Virus record (IMG/VR): IMGVR_UViG_3300036446_000021
DNA length: 64,000 bases
Strand: one strand, 5' to 3'
Source: a virus
The position numbers and the translations under genes are program-made. The notes under the pieces were generated by a model. It was not told the DNA's origin. It saw only the letters and a program-made list of their open reading frames with translations, and made no database searches. Of this stretch, positions 15,720 to 56,007 are shown one piece after another. How positions within the stretch are numbered: the stretch's first letter is position 1; each line of letters begins with the position of its first letter.

Positions 15720-15722
15720 GCT

Positions 15723-16040
15723 ATGCCAGTCACCAATAAAGTCAAGACAGTTGTACTTACAACAACCCTCACGACCGCTCTCTTGACGGCTGGAAGTGCT
15801 GAAACAATCCGGGTGACTCATATTATTGCGAGTTGCGGTACAACTGCGGGTTCGCTTACGCTTTCACTCAACGACAACTCTGGTAGCGTACTGGCACGTC
15901 TCTGGAACGCCAAGGCCATTAACGCTAATGCAAATCTGGAAATATTCGACCTGTTTCTTGAGTCGAACGACGAATTGAGAGGCGGTTACACAACTGCCTC
16001 CAGTGCTGAGCTTACAATTTGTTACCAGGTGGAAACCTGA
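15723..16040 (+). CDS. Small beta-rich virion protein
   Basis: TLTTALLTAGSAETIRVTHIIAS...LFLESNDELRG; within the fibre cluster. Confidence 0.55.
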   Translation: MPVTNKVKTVVLTTTLTTALLTAGSAETIRVTHIIASCGTTAGSLTLSLNDNSGSVLARLWNAKAINANANLEIFDLFLESNDELRGGYTTASSAELTICYQVET

Positions 16041-33981: not shown

Positions 33982-34366
33982 TGGCTCCCATTTCTTTCAA
34001 CGTCACCTGGTATTTCCCGATCGTATTAAACGCAGGTGTCCCCCAGGTGCGGCACCGTCGCCAACCCATTGTGTCACCCCGATCGACATACCAAATGTTG
34101 TTAGATGCCATTGCCGCGATCGCGTTAGTCATATTGCCAAAAACAGCGATTAGCGTGTCGTCAGGAATACTGACTTGATAAGTTTCGTAGCCCTGCCCCT
34201 GAATGGTCAGTTCACTGCTAACGGGGGCATCTGGTTGGATACCCATCGGCGTAACCAATGGATTAGGGGTGAGTATCTTGCTATCGCCAAACCGAATCTG
34301 GGTGTTGTTGAGTCCGAGATTGGTGAAAAGGCGATCGGCTGAAGCTTTGAACAGGTTGATGTTCAT
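33965..34366 (-). CDS. Head-closure-like protein
   Basis: Position and size; beta-rich composition. Confidence 0.4.
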   Translation of the reverse strand: MNINLFKASADRLFTNLGLNNTQIRFGDSKILTPNPLVTPMGIQPDAPVSSELTIQGQGYETYQVSIPDDTLIAVFGNMTNAIAAMASNNIWYVDRGDTMGWRRCRTWGTPAFNTIGKYQVTLKEMGANDYGV

Positions 34367-37300
34367 ACTTTTAACGCCACTTTCAATTGATCAGGCGCGT
34401 CTGGCAACTCTTTCTTCTTGCGCCTCTTCTTGGCACTACACTCCTGGCAGCCACAGTCGCTATCCATTTTTGTGGCTAGATAGGGGTATTGCGCTACGAG
34501 ACGAGATCGGGCTGCTTGTACAACCTCGTGTGACAGCGAGTCCAGGCTCACATGTTTGTACTTGCCCTTGTCACCAAAGTCAGCAGCAGTGCGCGATCGG
34601 GCTTTAGGTGCAAGGGGTGCGGAATGAATGCCTTTTGCAGTCCTTTTTTTGGCTATCGATGGATTCTTGTCGGGATCGAGAAGTACCGTATGCACTCCAT
34701 GCTGCTTAGCGTTTTGCCAATCAGCATTTTCCATTTTTTGCACCTTCCAAGAAAGATCTCTCAAAGCTTCTTGGTTAAGCCCTTTTTGCTTTTTGCGTCG
34801 ATAGTCGGCAGCAGCCTCTTTTGTCACTTCAGAAAGAAATGTAGGTGTGTGTCCGTTTGGAGCAAATCCGCCAACTGTACCGCTTGAACTGGCTGGCACA
34901 AACAACGGCACACCGTAAGGATCTCTATGTTCACCATTCACATTTCTTACAGAGCCATAGTATGATTTGCTTGCCTGTCGTTTCAGTTGTTCTGCTGTCT
35001 CAGTAAATTCTTTAGGCACCGTTGACGGCAACCCGATCGCCTGTCTCTCCCTCCCCTCAATCTCTTTCGATGGCTGCCCCTGCTTTCCTCTAGCCGCTAG
35101 TTGGTTCACTGTTGTTTGCGCCACCGCATAAGTCATTGCCGCATTGCGGTTACTGGCGGTCTCGTTCTCTTGCAGGTTGTTCAATAATTTCTCAATTCGT
35201 TGTCTGGGTGTACCCGTTGGTCTCTGGAAAGTACTGGCTGCTGGCTCAGACAATTGCACTGTATGCGTAGGGTCAAGTTGGTGCAGTGCAGCGTGTGCTA
35301 CAGCATGAATTTGAGCCGCATTTTTGATGTCAGCCTCATGGTTTTGCTGCAACTGATTCACTAGACCAGCAAGACGTTTACCGCGTCCTGATTGTGAGGT
35401 TTCAGGTGGCAAAACTTCAGGCATAATTGCTTTTGTCGGCACAGGTATCTTCATATGCCCCATCACCGCTAAACGTGCTGCTTCTGCTTGTGGAATGACG
35501 ATTGGCGCTTTGGTAGTACCAGGCACGATCGCGCCTACAGTCATGCTGGCTGGCTTCTTAGGAGCAACCTCTGTTGGCGTGTTCTTCACCATTCGATCGC
35601 CCGTCCGTTTTGCGATCGTATTCGCCGCTTTCAAGTCTCGCGTCTGCTGAATCTGCGCTGCCACACCCTGCAACTTAGCAGCATCAGGCTTATCCAATCC
35701 TTTCGAGGGGTGCTCGCCCCCTTGGCTTAGATGCTCAATCAATGCGTTGATTTTGTTGATCCTACCGTGATCAACTGCTGCCTTCTCATTTTTGTGGCAA
35801 TTTCGATGCACACCCTGACAAATGCCCCCGCATTGGTAGGTGGCACTACCACATTTCAAACGCTTGCCAGTAGCGTCCAGGCGTACCGGGTTTGACACCT
35901 TAGCCTCTAGCGCCTCTGTGTGGCTATCCCACCGCACAGTAAACTGATTCGCACTCTCACTGTCGAGCTTAGCTACAGCAGGCTGATAAGTGACATTTCC
36001 GTTGGCATAAGTAAACGCGTAAGACCTGCCATCTTGGGTGCCGACAAATTCACCCGTCACCGTCTTGCCCTGGACATTAAACTTGCGAATGCGGATGGGT
36101 GCCCCGTACAGCCCTGGTGCTTGCAGTTCTTCACCAATGAGTTGAGCCAAAGTAAGGCGATCGTCTAAAGCGTCTTTTCTGCTTAATTTAGCAATCGCTG
36201 TTGCCACTTCCTGTTTAGACATCGAGAATTGACCATAACCTTGGTCAGTCATGCCCATTTTGGCATAGAAGCCTTTAGCACTATCAACTGATGACGCTTC
36301 AATACCCTTACCAAGCTTTGCAGCATGGTGTAATAGTTGATTAAACATCTCGCTGCCAGATCCTTTAGTTGAGCCATCAGCCCCAAAATTCTGCACTGAG
36401 ATCAGTGACTTACCTTCTTTGTAAGACATCGCCCCTGTAATGTACCCGTCTTTGTTATGGCTGGTAAACAAACCGATGCGTGGGTTCTTGGCATCTTTTA
36501 GCGCTGTCAAGGTTCCTTGCTTGCCGTGTCCATTCGGATCATTGGCTTGAGGCTTGAAACGCCCTGACTCTAATTTGCTCACTAATTGATCAATACGGCT
36601 TGTTCTGCCCTGTTGCTCTTTTTGCCCCGATGTAGAGAAAGGGTCTGCGTGCGGCTCAAGAATATGACGACTGGAAACAGCGCCAGTGGGTCTGCCTGCC
36701 TTGCAACTTCCAGGAGGAGCATAGCCTTTGCCGCAGGGTTCCCATTTAGCATCTGCATGCAATTGATCAAGTGCATCAGCGCGTTCATCCTTGTCGCTGC
36801 TTACCTGTACAGCCCAAGCGCGATCAATGCCAGCCCGTCTGACTACTTCATGAGCAAAGTGATTTCCAACAACCTTGTAAGAACCATCTGCGTTTTCATG
36901 CACAAGAATCGGTACCCAGTTCCGCCCGTTTGTTTCCAGTAACTTCCTGGCGGCAGCATCCACCTGCCCTTGAGTGCCTTTATGCTTTTTGTTGGCAGTA
37001 GGATCCGTAGCAATTTCATCGGTATAGAGGTGCTGATAGTTGCCATTGTCGCTAAAGCCAGACCCACCCTCTTTTCTAGATAGCTGGTTTTGCATTGGCT
37101 TAACATGGGCAGCATCCACCTTGTCAGGCACTTGCATCATTTTGGCAAGTGCAATCTGCTCAGGGTTATTCGATACAATCACGCTGTAAGCTCTGCCTCC
37201 TTTGGAAGCATTAGCAGAAGCGGTAATTTTTTCGCTGATGCCACCGATCGCTTGGTACTGATCTTTCCCAGTTTCGATGACCAAAGCAGGGTTAAAATTA

Positions 37301-38547
37301 CGTTCACCTCTATCAAATGCTGCTGTGATAACAGGATCGTTTTTACCTTTGGTCTTTACTTCGTCTGCGTAAAGACTGATGAGGTTACCAACATCGCTAA
37401 ACCCTTTGCCAATATTGCCTAAAGTACGGGCATCTTCTTCTTTGTAGTTCTTTCTTAAAATCGCTAAGTCGTTTGTTTGTTGCGGATTTTGCTCAGTTGG
37501 TTTTGTTGCCGTTGCTTTGCTTTGTTTCTTTTTTACTTCAGGTTTCAGTGCCGATTCTCCAGCTTTTTTTAGTTCCTCTACAGTTGCCTTCTTGCCCTGT
37601 TTTTTTAACTCTGTCCGCTTTTGCTCGATTGCGGCTTCAACTTTCGCTTTTGGCGTAGCTTGATTCACTGGCTGACTGGTTGAGGAAGACGCGGTTTTAG
37701 CACCTCCTTTCTTTGCTCTCACGCACCCAGGTCTATTACCCTCCCAACCCCGTCCGCACTTTTCAGCGTCCTCCCGTAACCGCTCGATTGCCCCACTCAT
37801 GTCATAGTCAAGGTCAGCATACTTAGCGATCGCTTTTTGGTGGGCTTCAATAGTTGGCATCTGAGCATCTTGTTTGGGTTGAGTTTTGAGGTGACGCGCG
37901 ATCGCCCAGCCTGCCATCGTTAGGTCAAAGAGCGTCGATCGTTCCTGCTGAGTTAGTCGGTCAGTAGTTCCAGCATCAGCATCAGCGCGGCTGACAGGCA
38001 CCCTAGCAGTAACCAGTGCATGAAGGGCTTTGCCTTGTTTGGTGAGTCGTTCGGCGTATCTGTGGGCAAGGTCTGAGACTGCAACGGCTGTACTGATGCC
38101 GCCTGCTTTTCCGGCAATGATGGCTCCAAGGGCTTTGGCATGTGCTGATCCTTCTATATGTTCCAACGCCGAATGCGCCCCTGAATGCGAACTTTTGCCG
38201 ATCGCCCCTGCTGCCGCTTCAGTAATAAATTTGGCAGCAAGTTCTGTAGGGTTACGATTCTCTGGCTTGCGGGCATGGATGAGAGTAGCAGCGATCGCTT
38301 GAACTGCGGTTTCACTAATCAGATGAGCCGCGCCAGGGGGGAAACCGTGCGAAGCTGCCACTTGCGCGATCGCGCCTCCTACTGTCTTGCCAACGCCCCA
38401 GGATAATGCTGATTCCGAGACGTGTTCTGCTGCATGAGCGACTTTAGACCGAACGCAATGCCCCTTTAGCCCTTCCCATCCCTTACCGCAGTCATCATCC
38501 AGCCTGGCTTCGACGAGGCTATTGACACGGGCAAAGGTTGTAGACAT
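34363..38547 (-). CDS. 1394-aa multi-module head-associated protein (two ParB-like domains, GNAT domain, Cys micro-modules)
   Basis: NFNPALVIETGKDQYQAIGG and NWVPILVHENADGSYKVVGNHFAHEVVRRAG (ParB/Srx-like); KGSGSEMFNQLLHHAAKLGKGIEASSVDSAKGFYAKMGM (GNAT motifs A/B). Confidence 0.65.
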   Translation of the reverse strand: MSTTFARVNSLVEARLDDDCGKGWEGLKGHCVRSKVAHAAEHVSESALSWGVGKTVGGAIAQVAASHGFPPGAAHLISETAVQAIAATLIHARKPENRNPTELAAKFITEAAAGAIGKSSHSGAHSALEHIEGSAHAKALGAIIAGKAGGISTAVAVSDLAHRYAERLTKQGKALHALVTARVPVSRADADAGTTDRLTQQERSTLFDLTMAGWAIARHLKTQPKQDAQMPTIEAHQKAIAKYADLDYDMSGAIERLREDAEKCGRGWEGNRPGCVRAKKGGAKTASSSTSQPVNQATPKAKVEAAIEQKRTELKKQGKKATVEELKKAGESALKPEVKKKQSKATATKPTEQNPQQTNDLAILRKNYKEEDARTLGNIGKGFSDVGNLISLYADEVKTKGKNDPVITAAFDRGERNFNPALVIETGKDQYQAIGGISEKITASANASKGGRAYSVIVSNNPEQIALAKMMQVPDKVDAAHVKPMQNQLSRKEGGSGFSDNGNYQHLYTDEIATDPTANKKHKGTQGQVDAAARKLLETNGRNWVPILVHENADGSYKVVGNHFAHEVVRRAGIDRAWAVQVSSDKDERADALDQLHADAKWEPCGKGYAPPGSCKAGRPTGAVSSRHILEPHADPFSTSGQKEQQGRTSRIDQLVSKLESGRFKPQANDPNGHGKQGTLTALKDAKNPRIGLFTSHNKDGYITGAMSYKEGKSLISVQNFGADGSTKGSGSEMFNQLLHHAAKLGKGIEASSVDSAKGFYAKMGMTDQGYGQFSMSKQEVATAIAKLSRKDALDDRLTLAQLIGEELQAPGLYGAPIRIRKFNVQGKTVTGEFVGTQDGRSYAFTYANGNVTYQPAVAKLDSESANQFTVRWDSHTEALEAKVSNPVRLDATGKRLKCGSATYQCGGICQGVHRNCHKNEKAAVDHGRINKINALIEHLSQGGEHPSKGLDKPDAAKLQGVAAQIQQTRDLKAANTIAKRTGDRMVKNTPTEVAPKKPASMTVGAIVPGTTKAPIVIPQAEAARLAVMGHMKIPVPTKAIMPEVLPPETSQSGRGKRLAGLVNQLQQNHEADIKNAAQIHAVAHAALHQLDPTHTVQLSEPAASTFQRPTGTPRQRIEKLLNNLQENETASNRNAAMTYAVAQTTVNQLAARGKQGQPSKEIEGRERQAIGLPSTVPKEFTETAEQLKRQASKSYYGSVRNVNGEHRDPYGVPLFVPASSSGTVGGFAPNGHTPTFLSEVTKEAAADYRRKKQKGLNQEALRDLSWKVQKMENADWQNAKQHGVHTVLLDPDKNPSIAKKRTAKGIHSAPLAPKARSRTAADFGDKGKYKHVSLDSLSHEVVQAARSRLVAQYPYLATKMDSDCGCQECSAKKRRKKKELPDAPDQLKVALKV

Positions 38548-38584
38548 AGCTTAAACCGATAACTGCCCATATCATAACCGTGTC

Positions 38585-39439
38585 TCAAAGTAAAGATTCT
38601 GTTTTCTCGGCAAAACGGCATGGTCTTGTTAGCGTAGCTTCTATACTCCACCCCATTTTTAATCTCGCCCCAATGGTGCCACTTGTTAGCCCTGTATCTC
38701 TTGCCCAAGCAGCAATTGAGAGCATTTTTCCGTTATAAGAAAGTATCCGCTTTGCTCCGTTACGGGTTGTCAGCGCTTTCTCTACAGTCCATCCAAATTT
38801 GTCAATGCGGTTAGCAATTACAGAACCTGCTATACCCAGTCTTTCGGCCCACTCTGCCAAAGTCAGTCGTTCGCCGTTAAATTCTATAAACCGATTTCTT
38901 CTAGTATTTCTGGCTTGCTGCTTTTTTGTTGCCCAGTAGCAATTCTCAGGGCAGTAGTCGCCATCATTATCTCTACGATCGATAGAATGCTCTGAAGATG
39001 GTTTTAAACCCATGTCAGCAATGAAGTTCTCAAACTTACGCCAGCGATCGCAAACTTTTATTCCTCTACCGCCGTAGTCCTCAAACCTTGTGTCTTTAGG
39101 GCTATCGCATCGACGGATCATCTGACCCCATATTCTATATTCTGGAGTTTTTCCGCCAACTGTTGCGCCATGACTTAAGTTATGCCTTGTTACAGGAGGC
39201 TTATTAATTGTCCGACAAAGCTCTGATTTGTAACATCCGCAAGATATGCCCTTGCCAGTGATTACTATCTGCGCGTTAGTAATCTTTTCTTTGCCGCAAT
39301 CGCATTTGAACAGCCATAAATGCTTGTAAATCCATCCGCTTACAGGATGTTTGCACTTCTCAACAAGCCTTACAGCCTTTAATCGTCCATATTTTTGACC
39401 AGGACGCAAATCATGTATACTTGGCATTGCAGCCTCCAA
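38585..39439 (-). CDS. HNH homing-endonuclease-like protein with repeated C-terminal DNA-binding modules
   Basis: WLFKCDCG; YGGRGIKVCDRW; HSIDRRDNDGDYCPENCYWAT; two [FY]NGxxLT/SxAxWA repeats. Confidence 0.85.
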   Translation of the reverse strand: MEAAMPSIHDLRPGQKYGRLKAVRLVEKCKHPVSGWIYKHLWLFKCDCGKEKITNAQIVITGKGISCGCYKSELCRTINKPPVTRHNLSHGATVGGKTPEYRIWGQMIRRCDSPKDTRFEDYGGRGIKVCDRWRKFENFIADMGLKPSSEHSIDRRDNDGDYCPENCYWATKKQQARNTRRNRFIEFNGERLTLAEWAERLGIAGSVIANRIDKFGWTVEKALTTRNGAKRILSYNGKMLSIAAWARDTGLTSGTIGARLKMGWSIEATLTRPCRFAEKTESLL

Positions 39440-39576
39440 CTAGGTTGTCATCCCCCGGCTCTGACTCCCCAGAAAGAGCGCGGGGCTTTTACTTATTCTA
39501 GCATTTCGCCACTCAACACCAAGCAAGATGCACAAAGCGGTAAAAAGATCAACGCGATCGCTTGTTCTAGGGCAAA

Positions 39577-40089
39577 ATGGAACTGTCCATCCTGGACAGA
39601 CTGATGAACCTCGATACTCTCTTAAAGACGATCGCGCAAATCCCTGAAGACCTGGCAGAAATCTTGTCCAAGGTGCGTTTGCTGCCATTAATCGTCACTG
39701 CTCTCTCAAAAATGGAAGATAGAATTATGTCCACTCTCTCTGATTTCGAGGCATTCAAGCCCAAAGTGCTAGAGCTAATCGACAAGCTCAACCAGTCTAC
39801 TGACCAATCACAGCAACTAGCTGACGTGCAGAAGCAGTTGGCTGAAGCACTGGCAGATGATAAGGCTGATGAAGAGGCGATCGATGCTGCCAATGCTAAG
39901 GCGGCTGAGTTGCAAGCGGCGGCTGATGCCAAAGCCCAAGAAGATGCTCAGTTGACGGCTGAAATCGCTCAATTGAGTCAGCAGATTGGTGGTGATGCTC
40001 CTGCAACTGCTACGCCCGCACCTGTAGCACCTGTGGTCGAGCCTGACCCCGTAGCGCCACCAGTTGTACCTGCTACGCCCGCTCAATAG
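39577..40089 (+). CDS. Acidic Ala-rich coiled-coil protein with Pro-rich tail
   Basis: QLADVQKQLAEALADDKADEEAIDAANAKAAELQAAADAK...; single plus-strand gene followed by a terminator. Confidence 0.6.
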   Translation: MELSILDRLMNLDTLLKTIAQIPEDLAEILSKVRLLPLIVTALSKMEDRIMSTLSDFEAFKPKVLELIDKLNQSTDQSQQLADVQKQLAEALADDKADEEAIDAANAKAAELQAAADAKAQEDAQLTAEIAQLSQQIGGDAPATATPAPVAPVVEPDPVAPPVVPATPAQ

Positions 40090-40109
40090 TTGTATTGCTT
40101 TCTGAAAGG

Positions 40110-40139
40110 CGAAACCCCTGCCGAATAGCAGGGGTTTCG
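40110..40139. terminator. Intrinsic terminator between convergent genes
   Basis: CGAAACCCCTGC-cgaata-GCAGGGGTTTCG 12-bp stem followed by a T-tract. Confidence 0.8.
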
Positions 40140-40143
40140 TTTT

Positions 40144-40368
40144 CTATAGATTAGATTTTTTCTCTACAAGTCCCGTTTTGGATTGAAACAAAGACTGAAT
40201 ATTACCTGTACTGTTAACAACCCTTTTCAAAAATTCTTCATAACAGTCTGAATTTGATAGCTTTGGTTGTGGGTGTCGAATATTGCCTGTCTTGTTTATG
40301 ATTGTATTCTTAACAACTTCAATACTGCCAATTTTTTTGTCGTCAAGCAAGTAAATAAATTTAGTCAT
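40144..40368 (-). CDS. Small hypothetical protein coupled to the portal-kinase gene
   Basis: 74 aa, AT-rich, start shares base 40368 with the upstream stop. Confidence 0.5.
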   Translation of the reverse strand: MTKFIYLLDDKKIGSIEVVKNTIINKTGNIRHPQPKLSNSDCYEEFLKRVVNSTGNIQSLFQSKTGLVEKKSNL

Positions 40369-43300
40369 TAAAAGCCTGCCTTTACTAGCTTTTCTAGCAA
40401 TTCTTTAGCGTACCCGAAGCTGTCTCTAATAGAATTCTGCCTTTCTGGAGTAAACTCTTGTCTCTGTTTTTCATCCGAAGAAGGTATAAGTTTGTCTTGT
40501 GATGCTATAGCACTCTTGGCAAATTCGGCTTTATTCATATCAGCAAGCCCGCGCAGTGTTTCTACAAAAAGGTGTAAATTTTCTTTCTCACTATGTGTCA
40601 ACTTTTTGTTTGACAAAACAGAATCAAAACTTTTTTCAATAGCCTCACGTTCGTAATCTCGATAGGGCGAGTAAGGAGACTTGTAGAAAGCACCTTCATT
40701 ATCAATAGCGTGATAGGAATCTGTTTTCTGATCGTAAAAAATATTTCCATCATGACGATCGCCATTAAACGAAAAAACATCAAAAGCGTGTATCCTGGCT
40801 AAATCTGGATGGCTGATAGCATTTTTAAGCGCATCCTTGCTAGAAAGCATAAGACTATCGGGTTGTGTAAATTTCTGAACCTCCCCCAGCGACACTCCCG
40901 ACACAAATTGGCTCAATATTCTAGGGTAGCGATCGTCCTTGTCTGCTATTTCTGGATCTTCTATTTTGATCTTTGCTGTATTAATTCCGGCTGCTTGCAT
41001 TACCTTTTGTGCAATCATCTCTGATGTGTTGTCATAAGGAATATAACCAGTCATAGCGCTGGCAACTTTTGCAACATACTTCTGACCTCGATCGTCCTCA
41101 AAAATACTGTGTTTATTTTCGCCGATTGTGCCTAATTGTTTAAGCTCTTCAAAATTAACCAAATCTTTTTTAGTTAGAGCTAAGTCAGCAGTTCTGTTTT
41201 TTGGTTCTTCTGTGGCTTTTGCTTTCGTTTTTGCTTTTGCCTGCCGCTTCGGTTTCTTCTCTGCCGTTGGTTTTTCAGCCACAGTCGCGGGTGTTTTAGG
41301 CTTAACAGATCGCGTCTTCTTCTCAGCTTTTTCGGTCTTAGCCTTGGCAGATGCTTTCTCAGCCTTGGCTGAAGTTACAGCGGGCTTATCCTCACCTCTA
41401 GCAGCAGCGATCGCGCTCCTCGCCTCCACCTTCACCACAGCCCGTGCTGCTGCTCGTAGCTCTTTGGCAGTCGGTTCCTTGCCTGCTTTTTTGGCTTCAC
41501 GGCGCGTCTTGTCGATCGCCTTCTGAATCTTGCCGCGCAGGTCTTTCTCAATAGACTCAGGGTCAGCCCCGGTCTTTTTGGCGATCGCGGTAGCAATAGC
41601 AGAGGATGTCTTGCTGGTCTGATATTTGCCGCCTTTAGTCCCACCCTTAGCTTTAGTAGCAGTCTTTGGGGTAGCAGGAGTGGCAGCGCCTTCACCAACG
41701 AACTCTGCGATCGCAACATTAGACTTGCCAAAGGTGTTAAACTTCTTGCCTTTCTCCAGCCCTTCATTCTTGGCTTTGGCTTTGGCTAAAAGCTCCTGAC
41801 GAGTGGCATCCAGACGCACATCAGAATCTTGTTTAGCAAATTTGCGGGGGTCGTAAGCCCAATTTCTGAGGCTAATTAGGCGTTTAGTCATCCACACGGG
41901 CGCGTCGGCACTAACAGGCTCACCCTTACCTGCACCACGCATGCGAGCAATAAACGACACCGTTCTGAGCGCTTGTGTGGCATCTGCCTGCGTCCACTGT
42001 GCTTTAGGCTTCTGCAACAGTCTCAGGTTGCGTTGGATAGGTGCGCGATCGACACTTGCCAGTTTGCTCCAACGTGTTTTAGACCATGCCAGAAACTCAC
42101 TGGCACTCATGTTCACAGCGCCGTGGTATTTGGCATAGGCGGTGTCGATTGGTGAGTCAACAGCATCAAGCCTGTACCGCTCTAAGTCAGCTAAACTTAT
42201 CGCCTTAATGCCACCGAACATATCGGCAGGCATCACCTTGAGGAACGTCTCGCGAGCAGTATCCAGGCTGTCAAAGCCCAGCATGTATTTGTGCTCATCA
42301 AATTGCCCATCAATGAGTTGAGTGACTTCAAAGACCCGATTGCTTTCCAGGTCGGTGCCGACATAGCAATCACACGCCATGCCATCCGCACCGCGAGTCT
42401 TTTGAATATGCCCGTATGCCACAGGCAACACCTTCCCATGCCGGATATCGAAGGGCTGATATTGCAGCCCTAGTTTCAAGCCCTGCCAATCGATAATGCG
42501 TTTGACAGGAGTGGCATCATCCAAATGAAATGAGTCAGCAGAGTCGAGAAGAGCGCGATCGCTCAAAATATCGTCCGCGATCGACTGGTCTTGCTGCGCC
42601 TGTTCATCTTGCCCCAGTGCCTGATCTTCATCCGCAGTCGCTCCGTCCGCAGGCTGATCGCCACCTTGTAAAGCACTTACGTCTGGCTCAGTTGGTTGTG
42701 GTTTGGCTTCTTCCTTGATGTCACGTTGCAATGCCTCAGCGTATGGCTTGGGCAGGGTGATGGCACTGCTGTACTCTTTCTGTCCATAGGTAGCCGCGAT
42801 CGCCACCTTGCCAAAGCGTGGGTCAACACCATTTAAATCCTGAATCAACTGTGCCCGCTTTAGTTCTAAGTCAGCCTGTTCCGCTGGCGACGGTGGATAA
42901 GGAGGTAACCATTCCCACCCCAAACCATCAGGCAAGTCTCCATTTGTGGGTCCTGACTTGCAAAGGCAGACTAACTGCTGCAAGTCTTGAATGCTGTCGT
43001 CATATTTATCAACCTGGAACTGCGTTGTTGTCTCGTTCCACAGTTGGTTCTCAGTGGTCGATTGCCCGGTCGAGTTTAAGCCACTGGCAAACTCCCCAAA
43101 GGCGATCGCGGGTGGCAGGTCAATGCTCGCCAAAAGATTTTCCTTGACGCGATCATGCAAGTCACTCATACCTGTCACTTGCCGCGTCCAGTTGTCCAAC
43201 GCCTCGTTATCCATATCAATCACCTGAGTCCGGTAATTGCTACGACTGATCTGATCAACCTGCAAGCGAGTCAGCAGTTCGGCTTTGTACTCGTCACCGC

Positions 43301-44105
43301 GATCTGCTAAGTTCTGCGCCAGGTCTTTCACCTTACGGACAGGCACATCAAAATCGGTGAGCATACGCCCCGCCGCTTGTACAGCAGGTTGATACATGAA
43401 CCACGCATCACGCACCAATTCAAGAATCGAATCATCGCAGCCATTATTGGCAATGAGGTCGTAGTCGTCAAGAATCGGCACACCCCGAAACCAATGCACA
43501 CGACTCCTGTGAATGCGTTGCCCGTTGGCATAACCTTTCATGTTGTAAGTATTCAACACAATGTAGTGCTCCGGCAACCCACTACTCAGTGTGGAAATGT
43601 CTGGTCTAAGCGCATGACGTGAGAGCAGCGCCATTTTATTGATGCGCTTGATGTGTTCGCGATCTAGCGGCTCATCCAGTTTGCGGCCATCATCAACATC
43701 GAGCACTAAACCACTATTGCCAGTTTGTAGAGCAAGCTCACCCGCGATCTGATACCCCTTTTTGGTTCTGCCAAGCCGTTGCAAGGGTGTGACAACTGGA
43801 ATATTGTTGACAGCATCGGCGATCGACTGGAGCAGCTTAGCGTCACCGTTTGCCAGTGTCGGTCTACCCCACCGCCAAGTGGCAGCTTTGGGCAAGTTTG
43901 TAGTCAGCTTTTTGAGCAGCCCTGACTGACGGACTAGCGCTGATTGCTCTTGCCTTGAAAGACGACTCAGACCAGGTTGAATGTAGGTATGCTGCGTTGG
44001 ATCGACATACGGGTTCCCCATGCCTGTGTAGGGATTCTGCAAACCGCTGAAGACTTGCAACAGGGAATCTAAACGGATATCGAACGTTGGAGTTTCAGAA
44101 GACAT
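40368..44105 (-). CDS. DUF1073-type portal protein fused to InPase-like, DUF3140-like and HipA-like kinase domains
   Basis: N-terminal ~440 aa portal (RIHRSRVHWFRG; IPPAIAFGE-like DLPPAIAFGEFASGLNSTG; WEWLP); YGHIQKTRGADGMACDCYVG...FDEHKYMLGF; VNMSASEFLAW; YVAK...SEMIA...DRHDGN...AIDNEGAF. Confidence 0.78.
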   Translation of the reverse strand: MSSETPTFDIRLDSLLQVFSGLQNPYTGMGNPYVDPTQHTYIQPGLSRLSRQEQSALVRQSGLLKKLTTNLPKAATWRWGRPTLANGDAKLLQSIADAVNNIPVVTPLQRLGRTKKGYQIAGELALQTGNSGLVLDVDDGRKLDEPLDREHIKRINKMALLSRHALRPDISTLSSGLPEHYIVLNTYNMKGYANGQRIHRSRVHWFRGVPILDDYDLIANNGCDDSILELVRDAWFMYQPAVQAAGRMLTDFDVPVRKVKDLAQNLADRGDEYKAELLTRLQVDQISRSNYRTQVIDMDNEALDNWTRQVTGMSDLHDRVKENLLASIDLPPAIAFGEFASGLNSTGQSTTENQLWNETTTQFQVDKYDDSIQDLQQLVCLCKSGPTNGDLPDGLGWEWLPPYPPSPAEQADLELKRAQLIQDLNGVDPRFGKVAIAATYGQKEYSSAITLPKPYAEALQRDIKEEAKPQPTEPDVSALQGGDQPADGATADEDQALGQDEQAQQDQSIADDILSDRALLDSADSFHLDDATPVKRIIDWQGLKLGLQYQPFDIRHGKVLPVAYGHIQKTRGADGMACDCYVGTDLESNRVFEVTQLIDGQFDEHKYMLGFDSLDTARETFLKVMPADMFGGIKAISLADLERYRLDAVDSPIDTAYAKYHGAVNMSASEFLAWSKTRWSKLASVDRAPIQRNLRLLQKPKAQWTQADATQALRTVSFIARMRGAGKGEPVSADAPVWMTKRLISLRNWAYDPRKFAKQDSDVRLDATRQELLAKAKAKNEGLEKGKKFNTFGKSNVAIAEFVGEGAATPATPKTATKAKGGTKGGKYQTSKTSSAIATAIAKKTGADPESIEKDLRGKIQKAIDKTRREAKKAGKEPTAKELRAAARAVVKVEARSAIAAARGEDKPAVTSAKAEKASAKAKTEKAEKKTRSVKPKTPATVAEKPTAEKKPKRQAKAKTKAKATEEPKNRTADLALTKKDLVNFEELKQLGTIGENKHSIFEDDRGQKYVAKVASAMTGYIPYDNTSEMIAQKVMQAAGINTAKIKIEDPEIADKDDRYPRILSQFVSGVSLGEVQKFTQPDSLMLSSKDALKNAISHPDLARIHAFDVFSFNGDRHDGNIFYDQKTDSYHAIDNEGAFYKSPYSPYRDYEREAIEKSFDSVLSNKKLTHSEKENLHLFVETLRGLADMNKAEFAKSAIASQDKLIPSSDEKQRQEFTPERQNSIRDSFGYAKELLEKLVKAGF

Positions 44106-44173
44106 TGCGCTTTGCTGGAGTGCCGCTGCTTACATCATGCCTTGCAAGGCACAAAACGGTGCAACCTGCAAGT

Positions 44174-45754: not shown

Positions 45755-46247
45755 AACTGTCAGTAATCAAAAATCCGTTGGGCAGTGGTTTCACTTTGTA
45801 CCCATAAGCTGCAAATGTTGCCAACGCGTCTGACAGAGGTAGTCGTTTGCCAATGACACTTTCAATCACCCATTGCGGTGTAGGCACTGAGCTAACGACC
45901 TTTTTTTTCTCGATCGTCACTTTGGCATCGCCTGTTTCTACGCCATCCTTATCTGTAAGTGCCTCAGTTTTTTCAATTTCGTAGATGTTGGTCTGTTTGG
46001 CTCTGCCATAAAGGTAGCTATCTCGCTGCTTGAGTGCCTGTTCAATGATTTCAGGATCAACATGGCAACGATAATCGTTCAATGCTAACTGTACTTTCTG
46101 GACTAGGGGGGTAACGGTATGCAGCCAAAAATAATAAGTTGACTTTGTAATCTTGGCAGCTTTCCAGGCGGTCTTAAGACTACCAGTTCGTCTAATAGTG
46201 TCCAATAAAATTGCTTCAACTTCTGGCGTGTATTTACTTTCAGCCAT
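45711..46247 (-). CDS. Terminase small subunit
   Basis: N-terminal HTH (GSLKTAWKAAKITKSTYYFW); directly upstream of and overlapping the large subunit. Confidence 0.7.
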   Translation of the reverse strand: MAESKYTPEVEAILLDTIRRTGSLKTAWKAAKITKSTYYFWLHTVTPLVQKVQLALNDYRCHVDPEIIEQALKQRDSYLYGRAKQTNIYEIEKTEALTDKDGVETGDAKVTIEKKKVVSSVPTPQWVIESVIGKRLPLSDALATFAAYGYKVKPLPNGFLITDSYEGDGDEPSATTEA

Positions 46248-46558
46248 TAGCCAACTAAATCCTTAAAGTCACAACCAAACACCTTTAACCACTCTCTCAA
46301 CTCTGGCGGATCGACTTTGCGCCCCGCATTCATGATTGCGTAAACGGACGATCGCGGTAGCCCAATCATGTCAGCAAGCTGACTAATGTTGTAAGGCGAT
46401 CGCTCAACTTGCTGCCTAAATTTACTAGCAAAAAGCTGCTGAGGCGTAACAGGTGTAGTATTTTCGGACACTTCCGCGTCGCTCAATCTTAGCAAGGGTA
46501 AAACAAGATATTGACCTAATGCCCTTATTATGCCTTCGGCTACCGCCATTCGGTTCAA
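46247..46558 (-). CDS. Xre-like HTH protein (true start probably a downstream GTG near 46471)
   Basis: SPYNISQLADMIGLPRSSVYAIMNAGRK; the listed start overlaps the divergent gene. Confidence 0.65.
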   Translation of the reverse strand: MNRMAVAEGIIRALGQYLVLPLLRLSDAEVSENTTPVTPQQLFASKFRQQVERSPYNISQLADMIGLPRSSVYAIMNAGRKVDPPELREWLKVFGCDFKDLVG

Positions 46559-47963
46559 CCAATTAGCGACAATCGATCACTTCGACTCGAAAGACGGGGT
46601 GATGACGGTCACGGCGATCGCGCGCACGCCGGGGATATTGACCTATCGTAATGCCGATGGATCTACTCGTCGTGAGTTGGTATCGCGTGAGTTTCTGCGA
46701 CGAACAGATAGCAATGGTGTACCTTTAGTTGCTCAACTAGCAAACTTACCCGTAACAAATGAACATCCACCTTGCTTGCTGCGAAATGATGCTGACCTAT
46801 TGAAAAAGTATCAAGTAGGTAGAACTCAGAACAAGGTGCATGTCTTTGACGACGGACGTGTCCAAGTTACTTTTGACGTTTTCGATCCAGAGACACAAGA
46901 CGATATTCGCCTTGGGCGTAAAGACGGCGTGAGTGTCGGTTACGAAACAGCCGTAAAACATGATGCTGGCGAATGGCATGGACAGCATTTTGATGCTATG
47001 CAAGACGAGCCGATTGACAAAGACCACATGGCAGTCTGCGTGAATAACAGAGCGATTGGCGCAAAGATTAAAGCTTTCAAATTTGACTCCGCTGACACGA
47101 CTGATATTGCGTGGCAAGTAGACAGCGTGGAACCAGAACAACCTTTAACAGCTACTCGCAAGGATGCGCCCATGCCTCAAATGTTCCAGATCGAACTGGC
47201 AACACCCGACGGTAAAGCGCCGTTTATGGTGCCTCGTGAACTGTACATGGAAATTAAGCGACTCGGTTTAGATGATTGTGGCTGCCATGTTGACGCAGCA
47301 GAAATGGAATTAGTCTTTGATGCTGACGATGCTGAATATCGCGTTGATAGTGACGATACACTGTGGCGCTTTGATAAGGCGACAGGCAAAGGAAAGCAAT
47401 GTCCAGGCGGATATTACATTCCACAAAATCGAAACTGCAACCCCAAAACTCATGCGAAACGGGAAGGGCAAAAGTTAAATAAATTAGCTCAGAAAAAATC
47501 AACTTTTGACCCAGACTACGAAAAAGTAGCAGGCAAAGCAATTGATAAAAGCATGATGGCAGCAAAAGGTAGCCTTGCTGCTAGGGTTTCTGAAAACGTT
47601 CTTTCTAGTGCCTACTCTCGCGTTTCTTCGCCCTATACAGAAGGTTTAAGAAAAGAAGAAGCTGATCATCTCGCAGCAAAGACTCTGGCAAGGCGAATGC
47701 GGCGAGGCAAATCACAAAATACAACGGGCGAAATTGCCGAAGAGGCGAAGAGCAGAGAGCAAATAAGATCGCATTTCAAAAACGAAGGCATGGAACAAAG
47801 TTTGGCTTCTGACAAATCACGCAAAAAGCTAGCTCAGAAAAAGCGTATAGCCGAAAAAAGAAGACTTCAATCACAAGGTTTACCAAATGAAGGCGGCGCT
47901 TTTAGAGCAAAAGCAGCGTCTGGAAAAGGTAAACGAGCTTCAACTTACAGGATGCCAGCATGA
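46530..47963 (+). CDS. DUF2213-type prohead (maturation protease-like) protein with basic C-terminal extension
   Basis: IARTPGILTYRNADG...RELV...PVTNEHP...GVSVGYE...HMAVC...RAIG. Confidence 0.8.
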   Translation: MPSATAIRFNQLATIDHFDSKDGVMTVTAIARTPGILTYRNADGSTRRELVSREFLRRTDSNGVPLVAQLANLPVTNEHPPCLLRNDADLLKKYQVGRTQNKVHVFDDGRVQVTFDVFDPETQDDIRLGRKDGVSVGYETAVKHDAGEWHGQHFDAMQDEPIDKDHMAVCVNNRAIGAKIKAFKFDSADTTDIAWQVDSVEPEQPLTATRKDAPMPQMFQIELATPDGKAPFMVPRELYMEIKRLGLDDCGCHVDAAEMELVFDADDAEYRVDSDDTLWRFDKATGKGKQCPGGYYIPQNRNCNPKTHAKREGQKLNKLAQKKSTFDPDYEKVAGKAIDKSMMAAKGSLAARVSENVLSSAYSRVSSPYTEGLRKEEADHLAAKTLARRMRRGKSQNTTGEIAEEAKSREQIRSHFKNEGMEQSLASDKSRKKLAQKKRIAEKRRLQSQGLPNEGGAFRAKAASGKGKRASTYRMPA

Positions 47964-48817
47964 CAACCATTACACTTCCAGGCAGCATCAAAACCTATGA
48001 CGTAATGCCTGAATTGGCTGACGCAATTGAATATTCACTGCAAGTAAAACAAAGCAATGAAGCTTCTAAAAATTTTTTAGATGATAACAATGACGAGGAT
48101 AGCACTATGTCAAGCCAATACTATGACAGCGATGACGAGTATGACGAAGACGAAGACGAAGACGAAGATATGAATGATGACGATGATGATATGCCCAGTG
48201 GCAAGAAAATGCCGCTCTGGCTAAAAAAGAAAATGGCAAAAAAGGACTCTGCAATAGCAGAGTTAGCCGATCGTCTCGACTCACTCGCCGCTGAAATAGA
48301 AACCAAAGATGGCGAAATCGCAGTCTTGCAAGCGATCGTTGGGCGCACTGATGCTGAAGAGGCTACTGAACACGCCGACGCTGAGGCGATCGAGGCTGAA
48401 GTGCAGGCTCGTCTTGACAGCATGTTTGAGGCATATGCTGATGCTGAGCCATACTTACCTGCTGGCTTCAAATTAGATGCCACGAGCACTCCTGCGACCA
48501 TTCAGAGCGCTGCACTTAGCACCCTTGACACCGAGTTCAAGTTGGACTCAGCAGAGGCGATCGCGGGTGCCTATGCTGCCATGAAACGGTTTTCACCTAA
48601 GCGCCAGGACAGTAGCAGCCAATTAAATGGCCTTTTGTATCAAACCTTGCCTACACCAGCAGCAAGGATAGATGCAACACCGCTCAGTATTCCTGAACTG
48701 GCACGGCTGGACAGCGCTGATCCTCGACTAGCAGCGCTTGATTTCCGCACTCAAGGCCAAGTGCGTAGCTATCGCGTTGGTCGTGAAAAAATTACTACCC
48801 AAGGAGCGCATAACTAA
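47960..48817 (+). CDS. Head scaffold-like protein
   Basis: Highly acidic and helical, D/E tract, between the prohead gene and capsid genes; ten [RKH]xD[AS] motifs. Confidence 0.65.
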   Translation: MTTITLPGSIKTYDVMPELADAIEYSLQVKQSNEASKNFLDDNNDEDSTMSSQYYDSDDEYDEDEDEDEDMNDDDDDMPSGKKMPLWLKKKMAKKDSAIAELADRLDSLAAEIETKDGEIAVLQAIVGRTDAEEATEHADAEAIEAEVQARLDSMFEAYADAEPYLPAGFKLDATSTPATIQSAALSTLDTEFKLDSAEAIAGAYAAMKRFSPKRQDSSSQLNGLLYQTLPTPAARIDATPLSIPELARLDSADPRLAALDFRTQGQVRSYRVGREKITTQGAHN

Positions 48818-49671
48818 TGGTTCAGTCTATCTATACGCAACTGCCACAAGCAGGCTATCCAGGTAGTTTGTACGATTCTTGGGCAGTTGAAAAAGGCAAC
48901 CGTTTTACGCTCATTAATGCTCCTGTTGCTGCCAAACAAACCGTTGGCACGATGACAGTCGTGAAAGGTGCCAATGCTGGCGCTTATACCTATCAAGTGA
49001 TCGGTACGGCACCTAATGGTAATGCGGTGAATATCATCAAAACTTACAACGCACTGGCTGGCGACGACCTCAATATTGTTGCCAATAACTTAGTGAGTCT
49101 GGTCAACAACGACGATGTGCTGAATGATTTTCTGTCGCTGACGCAAACGGGCGGAGTGATCACCACCACTGTCATTCCCAGCAACAGCAACCCGGTTACG
49201 TCGATCGCGGGCACAGCTTCAGGCAGTGGTAACTCCATTACAGCCTCTCCCGCTGTAACAAACTATGCGGCCAACGGCATCATTTACTACGGCTATGCTT
49301 TGGGGCAATACGGGCAGGCACAAGTCAACCAGTCACAGTTAACCGGTGGCACTTGCTCCCCCATCACTACAGCCTCCAATTTGACGATTGTAGGGATTGC
49401 GATCGAGGCAAAAGCGGCTGAATTTGTTTATCCCTATAGCAATACCGCTCAAGGTGGTTGGCTACCAAACGAAGCTGTGCCTTATGCACCTGTGGGATCT
49501 GGCATTCGCATCTGGGTGCCTGTTTTAGCAGCAGTCACATCCGGTACGGTGCCGGGTGTTTCTAACTCCACCGGGCAGTTAACAACCACCGGGAGCGGCA
49601 CCGCGCTAACAGGTGCCACTTACATCAGTGATCAAGCAGTCGCAGGGTTAACCGCCCTCGTCCAACTTTAA
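48817..49671 (+). CDS. Head decoration / structural cement-like protein
   Basis: Starts MVQSIYT...AGYPG; IYYGYAL; GIRIWV; immediately upstream of the major capsid gene. Confidence 0.6.
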   Translation: MVQSIYTQLPQAGYPGSLYDSWAVEKGNRFTLINAPVAAKQTVGTMTVVKGANAGAYTYQVIGTAPNGNAVNIIKTYNALAGDDLNIVANNLVSLVNNDDVLNDFLSLTQTGGVITTTVIPSNSNPVTSIAGTASGSGNSITASPAVTNYAANGIIYYGYALGQYGQAQVNQSQLTGGTCSPITTASNLTIVGIAIEAKAAEFVYPYSNTAQGGWLPNEAVPYAPVGSGIRIWVPVLAAVTSGTVPGVSNSTGQLTTTGSGTALTGATYISDQAVAGLTALVQL

Positions 49672-49689
49672 TTTAGGAGGTTAACCTTA

Positions 49690-50694
49690 ATGACCGCAGC
49701 GATTCTTGATAGACCGCCAGTTGCTAGTTTTGGGCTGCGACTGGACACTAAAGAAAATATTCAACGCACCGCTATCGCGGCTGCAAGTGTTTCTCACTTA
49801 GACGCTGGCGAAGGTTTGTTCTTTGCCCGTCAGTTGGAGTATATCGTCCCCCAACTGTATCAGGTGAAATACGCCGAACAACGCGCACGGGTACATTTTC
49901 CGGTTTCGTTTGAGGGTGGAAACGGCATCAAAACCATTACCTACCGCGCTATAGATCGGCGTGGCAAAGCCAAAATTGTCACCAACTGGAGTACCGACTT
50001 TCCGCGTGTAAACGTGCTGGCAAGAGAAGTCTCTAACAAAGTAGTCTCTTTAGGTGACTCCTACGGTTACGACTTTCAGGAGATTCGTTCCGCCGCACAA
50101 GCCAATACACCGCTTGAACAGCTAGAAGCGAACGCGGCTCAAATGGCAATCACTGAGCTTGAAAACTCGCTGGCTTATTTTGGCGATGCCAATGCAAATG
50201 TTTATGGCGCTTTCAACAATCCATCAGTACCAATCACTTACGCTGCCTATCCGCTAGCACTAGGTGGAACGCTTGCTGTCACGGTTGATCAAGTGGTCAG
50301 TGTTTTTAATACTGCCATCAATGGTGTCCTAGTCACGTCGCGTGGTGTGGAAAGGGTCAACATGATTCTTGTTCCATTAAAAGTCTGGACGTTTCTGTCA
50401 GTCACGCGACTTGGTAGTTACAACGACAGGACGTTAATGGAGTATCTGGAAAAAGTCTTTCCAGGTGTTGTTTTTGACTGGTGTAACGAATGCTCTGGGG
50501 CTGGCCCTAACGGGCAAGACATTATGTTTTCTTACGTGCGTGATGACATGCACTGCAACTTGTTAGTGCCTAGCGACTTTGAACAACTGCCCGTATTTTC
50601 CGATGGTGCCACTTTCTCGGTGAAGTGCCATGAACGTTTTGCTGGGGTGCGCTTACCTTACCCTGCCTCCTGTTTGCTCACCATTCTTCAATAG
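49690..50694 (+). CDS. Major capsid protein (DUF2184-type HK97 fold)
   Basis: DAGEGLFFARQLEYI, AYFGDA...YGAFNNP, CHERFAGVRLPYPAS. Confidence 0.88.
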   Translation: MTAAILDRPPVASFGLRLDTKENIQRTAIAAASVSHLDAGEGLFFARQLEYIVPQLYQVKYAEQRARVHFPVSFEGGNGIKTITYRAIDRRGKAKIVTNWSTDFPRVNVLAREVSNKVVSLGDSYGYDFQEIRSAAQANTPLEQLEANAAQMAITELENSLAYFGDANANVYGAFNNPSVPITYAAYPLALGGTLAVTVDQVVSVFNTAINGVLVTSRGVERVNMILVPLKVWTFLSVTRLGSYNDRTLMEYLEKVFPGVVFDWCNECSGAGPNGQDIMFSYVRDDMHCNLLVPSDFEQLPVFSDGATFSVKCHERFAGVRLPYPASCLLTILQ

Positions 50695-55941: not shown

Positions 55942-56007
55942 AGTCTAGCCTTCAATTATACTATCATGAAGTGATAATATTTCGATTATAGACATATTAT
56001 TACCAGC

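What the first reader, a model, noticed from the sequence alone, without database searches (positions are those of the whole stretch)
34363..50694. [RKH]-x-D-[AS] motif marks module boundaries across head proteins: candidate protease code
Seen by eye: 10 copies in the 285-aa scaffold (KKDS, RLDS x3, RTDA, HADA, KLDA, KLDS, RQDS, RIDA), 9 in the DUF2213 protein, about 12 in the 1394-aa protein, 5 in the portal fusion, and HLDA just before the capsid core, versus about 1 in the 1454-aa tape measure. In the two large fusions they fall at domain junctions (RLDA before the DUF3140-like and the kinase-bearing modules; REDA, HADA, RLDA before Cys modules). Established: prohead proteases cleave scaffold and internal proteins at short sequence motifs. 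Inference: an Asp-directed protease releases the fused effectors inside the capsid.
Basis: partly seen in the sequence, partly recalled or inferred. Interest (0 to 1): 0.75.

Follow-up and report, generated by a model that had tools for sequence, protein, structure and literature searches.

The report
Asp-specific cut sites in phage head
A four-residue motif (Arg/Lys/His, any residue, Asp, then Ala/Ser) recurs in this prophage's capsid, scaffold, head protease and a giant cargo protein; it is most likely where the phage's own head-maturation protease cuts, which gives a testable cleavage rule for a very large, little-studied protease family.

Summary
[RKH]-x-D-[AS] occurs 10 times in the 285-aa scaffold (0.8 expected), 9 times in the DUF2213 protein (1.2) and 12 times in the 1394-aa protein (2.3). 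These are the only three ORFs of the 102-kb prophage above baseline. No host ORF of 300 aa or more reaches P<1e-5. The portal fusion (5 vs 2.8) is not enriched by count.

The motif acts at protein level, since its codons vary. It is family-wide: 140 DUF2213 representatives carry 922 copies against 150 expected, and control motifs are not enriched. In 119 of 120 capsid homologues the Asp is conserved just before the core.

The strongest support is experimental. The Edman N-terminus of the mature capsid protein of the distantly related phage TLS (ASDMGIW) follows K-N-D in its sequence, so the cut falls exactly inside this motif.

The DUF2213 domain models as a T4 gp21/herpes assemblin-type serine protease (Z 11.3) with invariant His/Ser/His. 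In homologues of the portal fusion and the 1394-aa protein, whole modules come and go exactly at conserved motif sites.

Cleavage in this phage and release of the modules remain inferred. This scan noted similar Asp motifs earlier on other DNA. Verdict: a new variant of a known kind (prohead-protease cleavage code).

The parts
46530..47087 (+). Protease domain (aa 1-186) of the 477-aa DUF2213 protein. It holds six motif copies, including HFDS17 near the N-terminus and KFDS184 at its C-terminal end.
   Evidence: Pfam PF09979, E 3.5e-15, 56.8 bits vs cut-off 22. PHROG 530 'head maturation protease'. H79, S135, H166 and R174 are invariant in 50 sequences. AF2 pLDDT is 84.8 and the best PDB match is T4 gp21 5jbl_A, Z 11.3, rmsd 2.6 over 127 aa. 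The site at aa 184-187 is conserved in 87 of 140 representatives.
47139..47963 (+). Cargo insertion (aa 204-477 of the DUF2213 protein). It holds RKDA210, a CGC module, HVDA253, RVDS271, a Cys-Gly module, and then a 204-aa basic tail (pI 10.2). It separates the protease from the scaffold, which are one gene in relatives.
   Evidence: P0002, P0003 and P0126 are direct protease-scaffold fusions. P0125 shares the insertion at 74% identity with all three motif sites kept. pI values are.
47960..48817 (+). The 285-aa scaffold, whose start (ATGA) overlaps the stop of the protease gene. Ten motif copies between aa 94 and 252 would cut it into pieces of 9-24 residues.
   Evidence: Homologous to the C-terminal half of fusion proteins P0002 (70% id) and P0003 (64% id), with the motifs kept at aligned positions and A/S swaps.
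49690..50694 (+). Major capsid protein (PF09950). HLDA at aa 36-39 (nt 49795-49806) is the predicted maturation site D38|A39. A second related site, RLDT, lies at aa 17-20.
   Evidence: Pfam E 7.7e-40. In 120 homologues, D38 is kept in 119, a basic P3 in 100 and A/S at P1' in 109. The TLS Edman N-terminus aligns to this site (PMC11447400).
34363..38547 (-). 1394-aa multi-module cargo ('polyvalent') protein with 12 motif copies and five Cys-Gly/Cys modules that follow motif or LDD sites.
   Evidence: 12 vs 2.3 expected. Homologues P0274-P0276 are also enriched (10 vs 2.4, 5 vs 1.9, 5 vs 1.5) and keep the sites with variable P2. P0275 lacks aa 595-789, a segment bounded by HADA597 and RKDA790. 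There is a weak GNAT hit in aa 700-770 and a PHROG 1917 'virion structural protein' hit.
40368..44105 (-). 1245-aa portal fusion: portal (aa 55-422), acidic linker, InPase (aa 538-644), RLDA645, an unassigned module, KQDS758/RLDA764, a Lys/Ala-rich linker, and a weak HipA-like kinase (aa 1005-1143).
   Evidence: Pfam Phage_portal_3 E 7.7e-32, InPase E 2.8e-19, HipA_2 E 0.007. The L001 homologue lacks aa ~530-760 and keeps LLDS..HLDA at the join.
42162..42173 (-). RLDA codons (aa 645-648) immediately after the InPase domain of the portal fusion.

Best explanation
[R/K/H]-x-Asp|[Ala/Ser] is the recognition and cleavage motif of the prophage's own head-maturation protease. That protease is the N-terminal DUF2213 domain of the 477-aa protein, a T4-gp21/herpes-assemblin-fold serine protease with a His79-Ser135-His166 triad. 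The invariant Arg174 is a candidate S1 residue for the P1 Asp (inference). Inside the assembled prohead the protease would do four things. It removes the first 38 residues of the capsid protein (D38|A39). It frees itself at conserved sites flanking its domain. It chops the scaffold into 9-24-residue peptides that can leave the shell. It cuts the 1394-aa cargo protein, and probably the C-terminal extension of the portal, at module junctions, so the enzyme modules lie free in the capsid for delivery with the DNA. Shown: the enrichment, the family-wide conservation, the fold, and cleavage after Asp in this motif in the homologous TLS system. Inferred: cleavage at each site in this phage, packaging of the 1394-aa protein, and release of modules.
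For: Enrichment is confined to three head-module proteins, against a genome baseline of 0.81. It is a protein-level motif. Across 140 DUF2213 representatives no more than 50% identical to each other there are 922 copies vs 150 expected. Controls [RKH]xE[AS], reversed, [DE]xD[AS] and shifted register give 0.68-1.26x. Scaffold parts alone give 625 vs 109. The capsid site is conserved in 119 of 120 homologues of 30-67% identity. The TLS mature capsid N-terminus ASDMGIW (Edman, PMC11447400) follows ...GAKND in AY308796, and the TLS DUF2213 protease also carries 9 motif copies. In PB1/Pa193 the same three substrates share A-M-D-S instead. The Pa193 capsid model starts at residue 66, just after D64|S65, and the first 93 portal residues are missing. 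Site consensus therefore co-varies among the substrates of one phage. Fold: Z 11.3 to T4 gp21 and about 7.5 to herpes proteases; the triad is invariant. Module indels in homologues coincide with motif sites, and the InPase domain ends one residue before RLDA.
Against: There are no cleavage or virion data for this phage. Only one site in one distant relative (protease about 26-28% identical) has been sequenced. The TLS authors themselves surmised removal of 45 residues, although the sequenced peptide starts at residue 28 of the deposited sequence. The conserved capsid motif continues into a conserved N-arm (D-A-N-E-S-x-F-F), so part of its conservation may be structural. Motif copies inside folded domains (protease aa 58, 85, 143, 153; kinase aa 1127) are unlikely primary sites. 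The portal fusion count is within chance. The AF2 model of the 1394-aa protein failed (pLDDT 39), so 'junction' rests on homologue indels and one Pfam boundary.
Confidence: 0.72

Rival explanations
1. Only the capsid N-terminal site is a true cleavage site. The repeated copies in the scaffold, protease tail and 1394-aa protein are structural or binding elements: helix N-caps (Asp-Ser/Ala-x-x-Glu), or pseudo-substrate docking motifs that recruit these proteins to the protease or scaffold core without being cut.
For: Many sites are followed by helix-favouring A/E/L residues, and E is enriched 1.9x at P3'. Pa193 gp24 leaves a helix-turn-helix fragment in the mature head, and its cleavage is undetermined.
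Against: A helix cap does not require a basic residue exactly at P3. [RKH]xxD[AS] and [RKH]D[AS] are not enriched (1.26x, 1.21x). The same four-residue pattern is the experimentally cut site in the TLS capsid protein. In PB1 the capsid, portal and scaffold sites changed together to AMDS, as expected for substrates of one enzyme.
Confidence: 0.13
2. The motif is a capsid-targeting or packaging tag, or the site of a different (host or unidentified phage) Asp-specific protease, and not the DUF2213 domain.
For: No enzymology exists for any DUF2213 protein. The Pa193 authors call gp24 a scaffold and never a protease.
Against: The motif travels with DUF2213 across about 140 diverse representatives and flanks the protease domain itself (87 of 140 at the C-terminal end). 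The fold and the invariant His/Ser/His match gp21/assemblin proteases. Hosts range from enterobacteria to cyanobacteria, so a shared host enzyme is unlikely.
Confidence: 0.1
3. The enrichment is a by-product of amino-acid composition, internal duplication of modules, or post-hoc motif choice.
For: The motif was chosen by eye. The Cys-Gly modules of the 1394-aa protein are repeats that each carry one copy.
Against: 0 of 2000 composition-preserving shuffles reach the observed counts. No host ORF does so. The same predefined motif is 6-fold enriched in independent family members, while the control motifs are not. The scaffold copies are not tandem repeats of one unit: flanks and spacing differ.
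Confidence: 0.02

Closest known systems
T4 prohead protease gp21 (PDB 5JBL) with its [L/I]-x-Glu| rule; scaffold gp22 degraded to small peptides; internal proteins IPI-III and Alt trimmed after a capsid-targeting sequence (own knowledge; reviewed in PMC9958956, PMC9026906)
   Same: Best structural match of the DUF2213 domain (Z 11.3). Acidic P1. One short motif shared by capsid, scaffold, the protease itself and packaged proteins. The scaffold is cut into small pieces.
   Different: P1 is Asp, not Glu. P3 is basic, not Leu/Ile. Here the sites also lie between modules of multi-domain proteins and a portal extension, not only after an N-terminal targeting peptide. No sequence similarity is detectable by Pfam.
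Giant-phage proteases phiKZ gp175 / SPN3US gp245, cleaving at S/A/G-x-Glu in many head and ejection proteins (PMC5694885, PMC10052503)
   Same: A protease motif code read across many head and ejected proteins and defined by MS. The cargo is processed in the head.
   Different: Glu-specific and a different protease subfamily. Proven by mass spectrometry, whereas here it is only predicted.
T1-like phage TLS: DUF2213 'capsid maturation protease' gp33 and capsid protein gp36, mature N-terminus ASDMGIW (PMC11447400)
   Same: The same protease family (PF09979) and capsid family (PF09950). The cut follows K-N-D, i.e. this motif. The protease-scaffold protein carries 9 copies.
   Different: The paper does not describe a motif and infers a different cut position. 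TLS portal and MuF proteins have no copies, so there are no fused effectors.
Pbunavirus Pa193 gp24 / PB1 gp22 (DUF2213, 'putative scaffolding protein', PDB 9B40; PMC11456595)
   Same: Protease-plus-scaffold architecture, next to cement and capsid genes. The capsid model starts just after an Asp-Ser.
   Different: The site consensus there is A-M-D-S, with no basic P3. It belongs to a different capsid family.
Herpesvirus assemblin (UL26/UL26.5) and phage protease-scaffold fusions (P2 gpO, lambda C/Nu3; own knowledge)
   Same: Same fold class (Z about 7.5). His-Ser-His triad. Ser/Ala at P1'. The protease is fused to its scaffold, as in relatives P0002 and P0003.
   Different: Assemblin cuts Ala|Ser at two sites only. 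In this window the fusion is split by a cargo insertion.
Polyvalent proteins of phages (Iyer, Burroughs, Anand, de Souza, Aravind 2017, PMC5512222)
   Same: Multi-domain virion-delivered proteins. InPase fused to a portal is described there (BcepF1). Processing into units is postulated.
   Different: That paper assigns processing to an in-built zincin-like MPTase domain. Here no such domain was found, and the joints carry the head protease's motif instead.

Membership tests
DUF2213 / Pa193_gp24 (Pfam PF09979) | Score above Pfam's gathering threshold | tested here: met
   56.8 bits vs 22, E 3.5e-15, aa 21-180. 1969 representatives at E<=0.001.
gp21/assemblin-fold prohead serine proteases (MEROPS clan SH) | Shared fold with solved members | tested here: met
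   AF2 model pLDDT 84.8. T4 gp21 5jbl_A Z 11.3, rmsd 2.6 A, 127 aa. HCMV/KSHV/EBV proteases Z 7.1-7.7.
gp21/assemblin-fold prohead serine proteases (MEROPS clan SH) | Conserved His-Ser-His catalytic residues | tested here: inconclusive
   H79, S135 and H166 are invariant in 50 diverse sequences.
gp21/assemblin-fold prohead serine proteases (MEROPS clan SH) | Proteolytic activity on capsid/scaffold substrates | not testable with these tools
   Only indirect: TLS capsid Edman data (PMC11447400).
Prohead-protease cleavage code (as T4 LxE, phiKZ AxE) | Same short motif shared by capsid propeptide, scaffold, protease and internal proteins, above chance | tested here: met
Prohead-protease cleavage code (as T4 LxE, phiKZ AxE) | Mature N-termini map to the motif | tested here: inconclusive
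   Met for one site in homologue TLS (K-N-D|A). Consistent with the Pa193 capsid model start. No data for this phage.
Polyvalent proteins (Iyer et al. 2017) | Several unrelated effector-type domains in one phage polypeptide linked to a virion-packaging domain | tested here: met
   Portal fusion: Phage_portal_3 plus InPase (PF18823, E 2.8e-19) plus a weak HipA-like kinase. For the 1394-aa protein, domain identities are weak (GNAT E 0.006), so the feature is met only for the portal fusion.
Polyvalent proteins (Iyer et al. 2017) | In-built MPTase (zincin-like) processing peptidase | tested here: not met
   No peptidase family hit in either large protein, even at E<=1. This feature is frequent but not obligatory in that class.
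Major capsid protein PF09950 (HK97 fold) | Pfam score above threshold and a solved homologue | tested here: met
   137 bits vs 26.8. PDB 9kmg E 4e-25 and Pam3 8hdt E 2.4e-21.

The most novel reading that the evidence does not exclude
[R/K/H]-x-Asp|[Ala/Ser] (with lineage variants such as A-M-D|S) is a general, Asp-specific cleavage rule of the huge DUF2213 prohead-protease family. In some phages it doubles as a 'plug-and-play' joint. Effector cassettes (InPase, kinase, GNAT-like, Cys-Gly modules) can be inserted into the portal, the protease-scaffold gene or cargo polyproteins as long as they are flanked by the motif. They are then set free inside the capsid for injection. The motif would let packaged anti-host effectors be predicted from sequence alone.
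Probability: 0.45. Interest if true: 0.78.

Novelty: new variant of a known kind. Interest (0 to 1): 0.66.

Why it matters
Prohead-protease cleavage rules are known for only a few model systems (T4 LxE, phiKZ/SPN3US AxE, HK97, herpes Ala|Ser). DUF2213 proteases with PF09950 capsids are found in well over a thousand sequenced phages, including T1-like Klebsiella and E. coli phages used in therapy, Pbunaviruses and cyanophages. I found no paper that states their specificity. A simple Asp rule would allow four things: correct mature protein boundaries in cryo-EM and proteomics, prediction of which large head-module proteins are processed and delivered into the host, design of capsid-targeted cleavable cargo, and an explanation of how effector modules are swapped between phages. 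It can be tested at once in cultured phages such as T1 and TLS.

Tried and rejected
1. DNA-level explanation (methylase or restriction site, or repeat): rejected, because codons at the sites are diverse.
2. Composition or chance: rejected.
3. blastn of the head module against 50,697 phage records gave no match. The scaffold has only two homologues among 5.8 billion proteins and none in 400 genomes of the same phylum, so conservation tests for the scaffold rest on 2-3 sequences.
4. AF2 of the 1394-aa protein (aa 170-1010, 4-sequence alignment): mean pLDDT 39, unusable for domain borders.
5. Foldseek alone gave only weak E-values for the protease model (best 2.8e-3). The structural re-alignment was needed.
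6. Shigella phage Sf11 was examined as a possible third experimental case, but it is not a T1-like phage. None of its four head proteins checked (capsid, gp41, MuF, portal) is enriched for the motif, and its MS coverage start is a tryptic boundary, so it is uninformative.
7. phmmer of the DUF2213 protein against PDB sequences gave no hit.
8. Literature searches for DUF2213, Pa193 gp24, T1/Rogue1 N-termini and prohead-protease motifs found no statement of an Asp-specific rule. Roberts et al. 2004 (T1 proteome) is not in the library and could not be read.
9. The 'DUF3140-like' label for portal aa 650-757 was not reproduced by Pfam.
10. A complex prediction of protease with substrate was not run, because enzyme-substrate pairs are a poor use of that tool.
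Full report
THE OBSERVATION
I translated the ORFs of the region and counted [RKH]-x-D-[AS].
- 10 in the 285-aa protein (47960-48817 +)
- 9 in the 477-aa DUF2213 protein (46530-47963 +)
- 12 in the 1394-aa protein (34363-38547 -)
- 5 in the 1245-aa portal fusion (40368-44105 -)
- HLDA at residues 36-39 of the capsid protein (49690-50694 +)
- 1 in the 1454-aa presumed tape measure

Against each protein's own composition the first three are far above chance: 10 vs 0.8, 9 vs 1.2 and 12 vs 2.3, with 0 of 2000 shuffles reaching the observed count. The portal fusion (5 vs 2.8, P=0.15) and the tape measure (1 vs 1.2) are not.

As an outside control, 2378 long ORFs of the host genome show obs/exp 0.81, and none reaches P<1e-5. 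Among 120 ORFs of the prophage only these three proteins stand out. The codons used at the sites are diverse, so selection acts on the peptide and not on a DNA word.

WHAT THE GENES ARE
- The 477-aa protein carries PF09979 (DUF2213, now named Pa193_gp24) and matches PHROG 'head maturation protease' families.
- The next genes are the scaffold (no family), a weak Phage_cement match, and a PF09950 major capsid protein.
- On the other strand lie the large terminase, a portal fused to an InPase domain and a weak HipA-like kinase, an HNH endonuclease, and the 1394-aa protein.

A 50-sequence alignment of the DUF2213 domain has invariant H79, S135, H166 and R174. Its AlphaFold model (pLDDT 84.8) matches the T4 prohead protease gp21 best (Z 11.3, rmsd 2.6 A over 127 residues), and then the herpesvirus assemblins (Z about 7.5). 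The domain is therefore a capsid-maturation serine protease of the gp21/assemblin fold.

THE MOTIF IS A PROPERTY OF THE WHOLE FAMILY
A search of 1.8 billion cluster representatives found 1969 DUF2213 proteins. In the 140 best full-length representatives, mutually no more than 50% identical, the predefined motif occurs 922 times against 150 expected (6.2-fold).

Control patterns are not enriched: Glu instead of Asp, the reversed motif, acidic P3, and the basic residue one place nearer or farther give 0.68-1.26-fold. Only Gly/Thr at P1' is also raised, 3-fold.

In the C-terminal scaffold parts alone the count is 625 vs 109. P3 is R 52%, K 39% and H 9%. P2 favours L, F and T. P1' is S 55% and A 45%. 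The site at the end of the protease domain (K-F-D-S184 here) is conserved in 87 of 140.

In 120 homologues of the capsid protein (30-67% identity) the Asp aligned with D38 is present in 119, a basic P3 in 100, and Ala/Ser at P1' in 109. The site lies 7-38 residues from the N-terminus, immediately before the conserved core.

EXPERIMENTAL ANCHOR
The T1-like coliphage TLS has the same protease and capsid families. Its authors determined by Edman degradation that the mature capsid protein begins ASDMGIW (PMC11447400). In the deposited genome (AY308796) this string occurs once, at residue 28, preceded by ...R-G-A-K-N-D. The cut is therefore K-N-D|A, exactly the motif and exactly the aligned position of HLDA in this window (one search shows the related K-Q-D-A in the solved T1-like capsid 9kmg).

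The paper does not note a motif, and it surmises a 45-residue removal that does not fit its own peptide. The TLS DUF2213 protein also carries nine copies.

In the more distant Pbunaviruses the basic-P3 motif is absent. However, capsid, portal and DUF2213 protein each carry A-M-D-S. The Pa193 capsid model begins at residue 66, just after D64|S65, and the first 93 portal residues were not seen by cryo-EM or MS (PMC11456595). Substrate sites that change together within a phage while keeping Asp-Ser/Ala are what one expects of a protease specificity.

MODULE BOUNDARIES
The scaffold has only two homologues in 5.8 billion proteins. Both are single proteins with the DUF2213 protease at the N-terminus and the scaffold at the C-terminus. 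The motif copies are kept at aligned positions while P2 varies and Ala and Ser swap.

In this window the fusion is split. Residues 204-477 of the protease protein are an insertion: three motif sites, two Cys modules and a 204-aa tail of pI 10.2. It is shared at 74% identity with one metagenomic relative. The scaffold restarts at an overlapping ATGA.

The portal homologue on contig L001 lacks residues ~530-760 of the portal fusion (InPase plus the next module). The join falls at the motif sites, RLDA645 and KQDS758/RLDA764 here and LLDS..HLDA there. Pfam places the end of InPase at 644, one residue before RLDA.

Three homologues of the 1394-aa protein are likewise enriched and keep the sites (REDA/RHDA/RFDA; HADA/HEDA; RLDA/RVDS; KMDS/RLDA/RADS). 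One of them lacks residues 595-789, a cassette bounded by HADA597 and RKDA790. My attempt to obtain independent domain borders by AlphaFold failed (pLDDT 39).

MECHANISM
By analogy with T4 gp21, which cuts capsid, scaffold, itself and the internal proteins at L/I-x-Glu, I propose four actions of the DUF2213 protease inside the prohead:
- It trims the capsid protein at D38|A39.
- It releases and later destroys itself.
- It reduces the scaffold to 9-24-residue peptides.
- It separates the modules of the 1394-aa protein and of the portal's C-terminal extension, which faces the capsid interior.

The family-level rule and the single TLS site are shown. Everything specific to this phage is inference. 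Copies inside folded domains (protease core, kinase) need not be used.

COMPARISON AND NOVELTY
The principle of a short motif code read by a prohead protease is established for T4 and for phiKZ/SPN3US (PMC5694885, PMC10052503). Multi-domain 'polyvalent' virion proteins, including portal-InPase fusions, were described by Iyer et al. (PMC5512222), who attributed processing to an in-built metallopeptidase that is not found here.

I found no paper stating an Asp-specific rule for DUF2213 proteases. Earlier notes of this scan on other genomes reached similar readings: R-x-D, A-x-D and T-G-D motifs with DUF2213. Those are unchecked AI notes and not independent evidence, but they show that the scan has met the pattern before. 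I rate this a new variant of a known kind.

SURROUNDINGS
The window lies in contig C70. There a 102,201-bp unit is present twice in perfect tandem. The junction lies just upstream of a large serine recombinase gene, so the head module sits at the right end of a ~102-kb prophage.

Noticed in passing
window ~55965-55975 (G000:C70:110225-110235); whole unit C70:8024-212436: A 102,201-bp unit is present as two 100% identical tandem copies sharing an 11-bp overlap. This is a ~102-kb prophage as a tandem double lysogen, or an assembled concatemer. The junction lies between the last head/neck-side gene (55266-55706) and a large serine recombinase gene.
   Followed up: partly
window 56008-57336 (+): The 442-aa protein has Resolvase (E 6.9e-33) and Zn_ribbon_recom domains. 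It is a large serine recombinase and the likely prophage integrase, at the start of the second copy.
   Followed up: partly
window 46530-48817 (+): The protease-scaffold gene, a single ORF in the closest relatives (P0002, P0003), is split here by an ~820-bp cargo insertion that brings its own stop. The scaffold restarts at an overlapping ATGA. This changes the protease-to-scaffold coupling and adds a basic (pI 10.2) 204-aa tail protein.
   Followed up: partly
1394-aa protein aa 14-34, 257-280, 596-619, 888-918, 1359-1372 (window 34363-38547 -); 477-aa protein aa 245-252, 280-306: There is a repeated short Cys module (C-G-x-G-W/Y-x5-6-C, or C-G-C-x-E-C) directly after motif or L-D-D sites, conserved in homologues P0274-P0276 and P0125. 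It could be a disulfide or zinc knuckle marking the N-terminus of each released module. Function unknown.
   Followed up: no
L005 (phage TLS, AY308796) 15087-16061: The TLS paper surmises that 45 residues are removed from the capsid protein, but its Edman peptide ASDMGIW starts at residue 28 of the deposited sequence, so 27 residues are removed and the cut is after Asp27.
   Followed up: yes
window 38585-39439 (-): An HNH endonuclease (PHROG 374, E 5.6e-66) sits between the 1394-aa cargo gene and the portal gene. Relatives carry an HNH/AP2 gene near the terminase instead.
   Followed up: no
1394-aa protein aa 40-185 (window ~37993-38430 -): The N-terminal module is rich in Gly/Ala/His small-residue repeats (GxxxG/A-like) and is absent from the three homologues. 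It may be membrane-active. No family hit.
   Followed up: no
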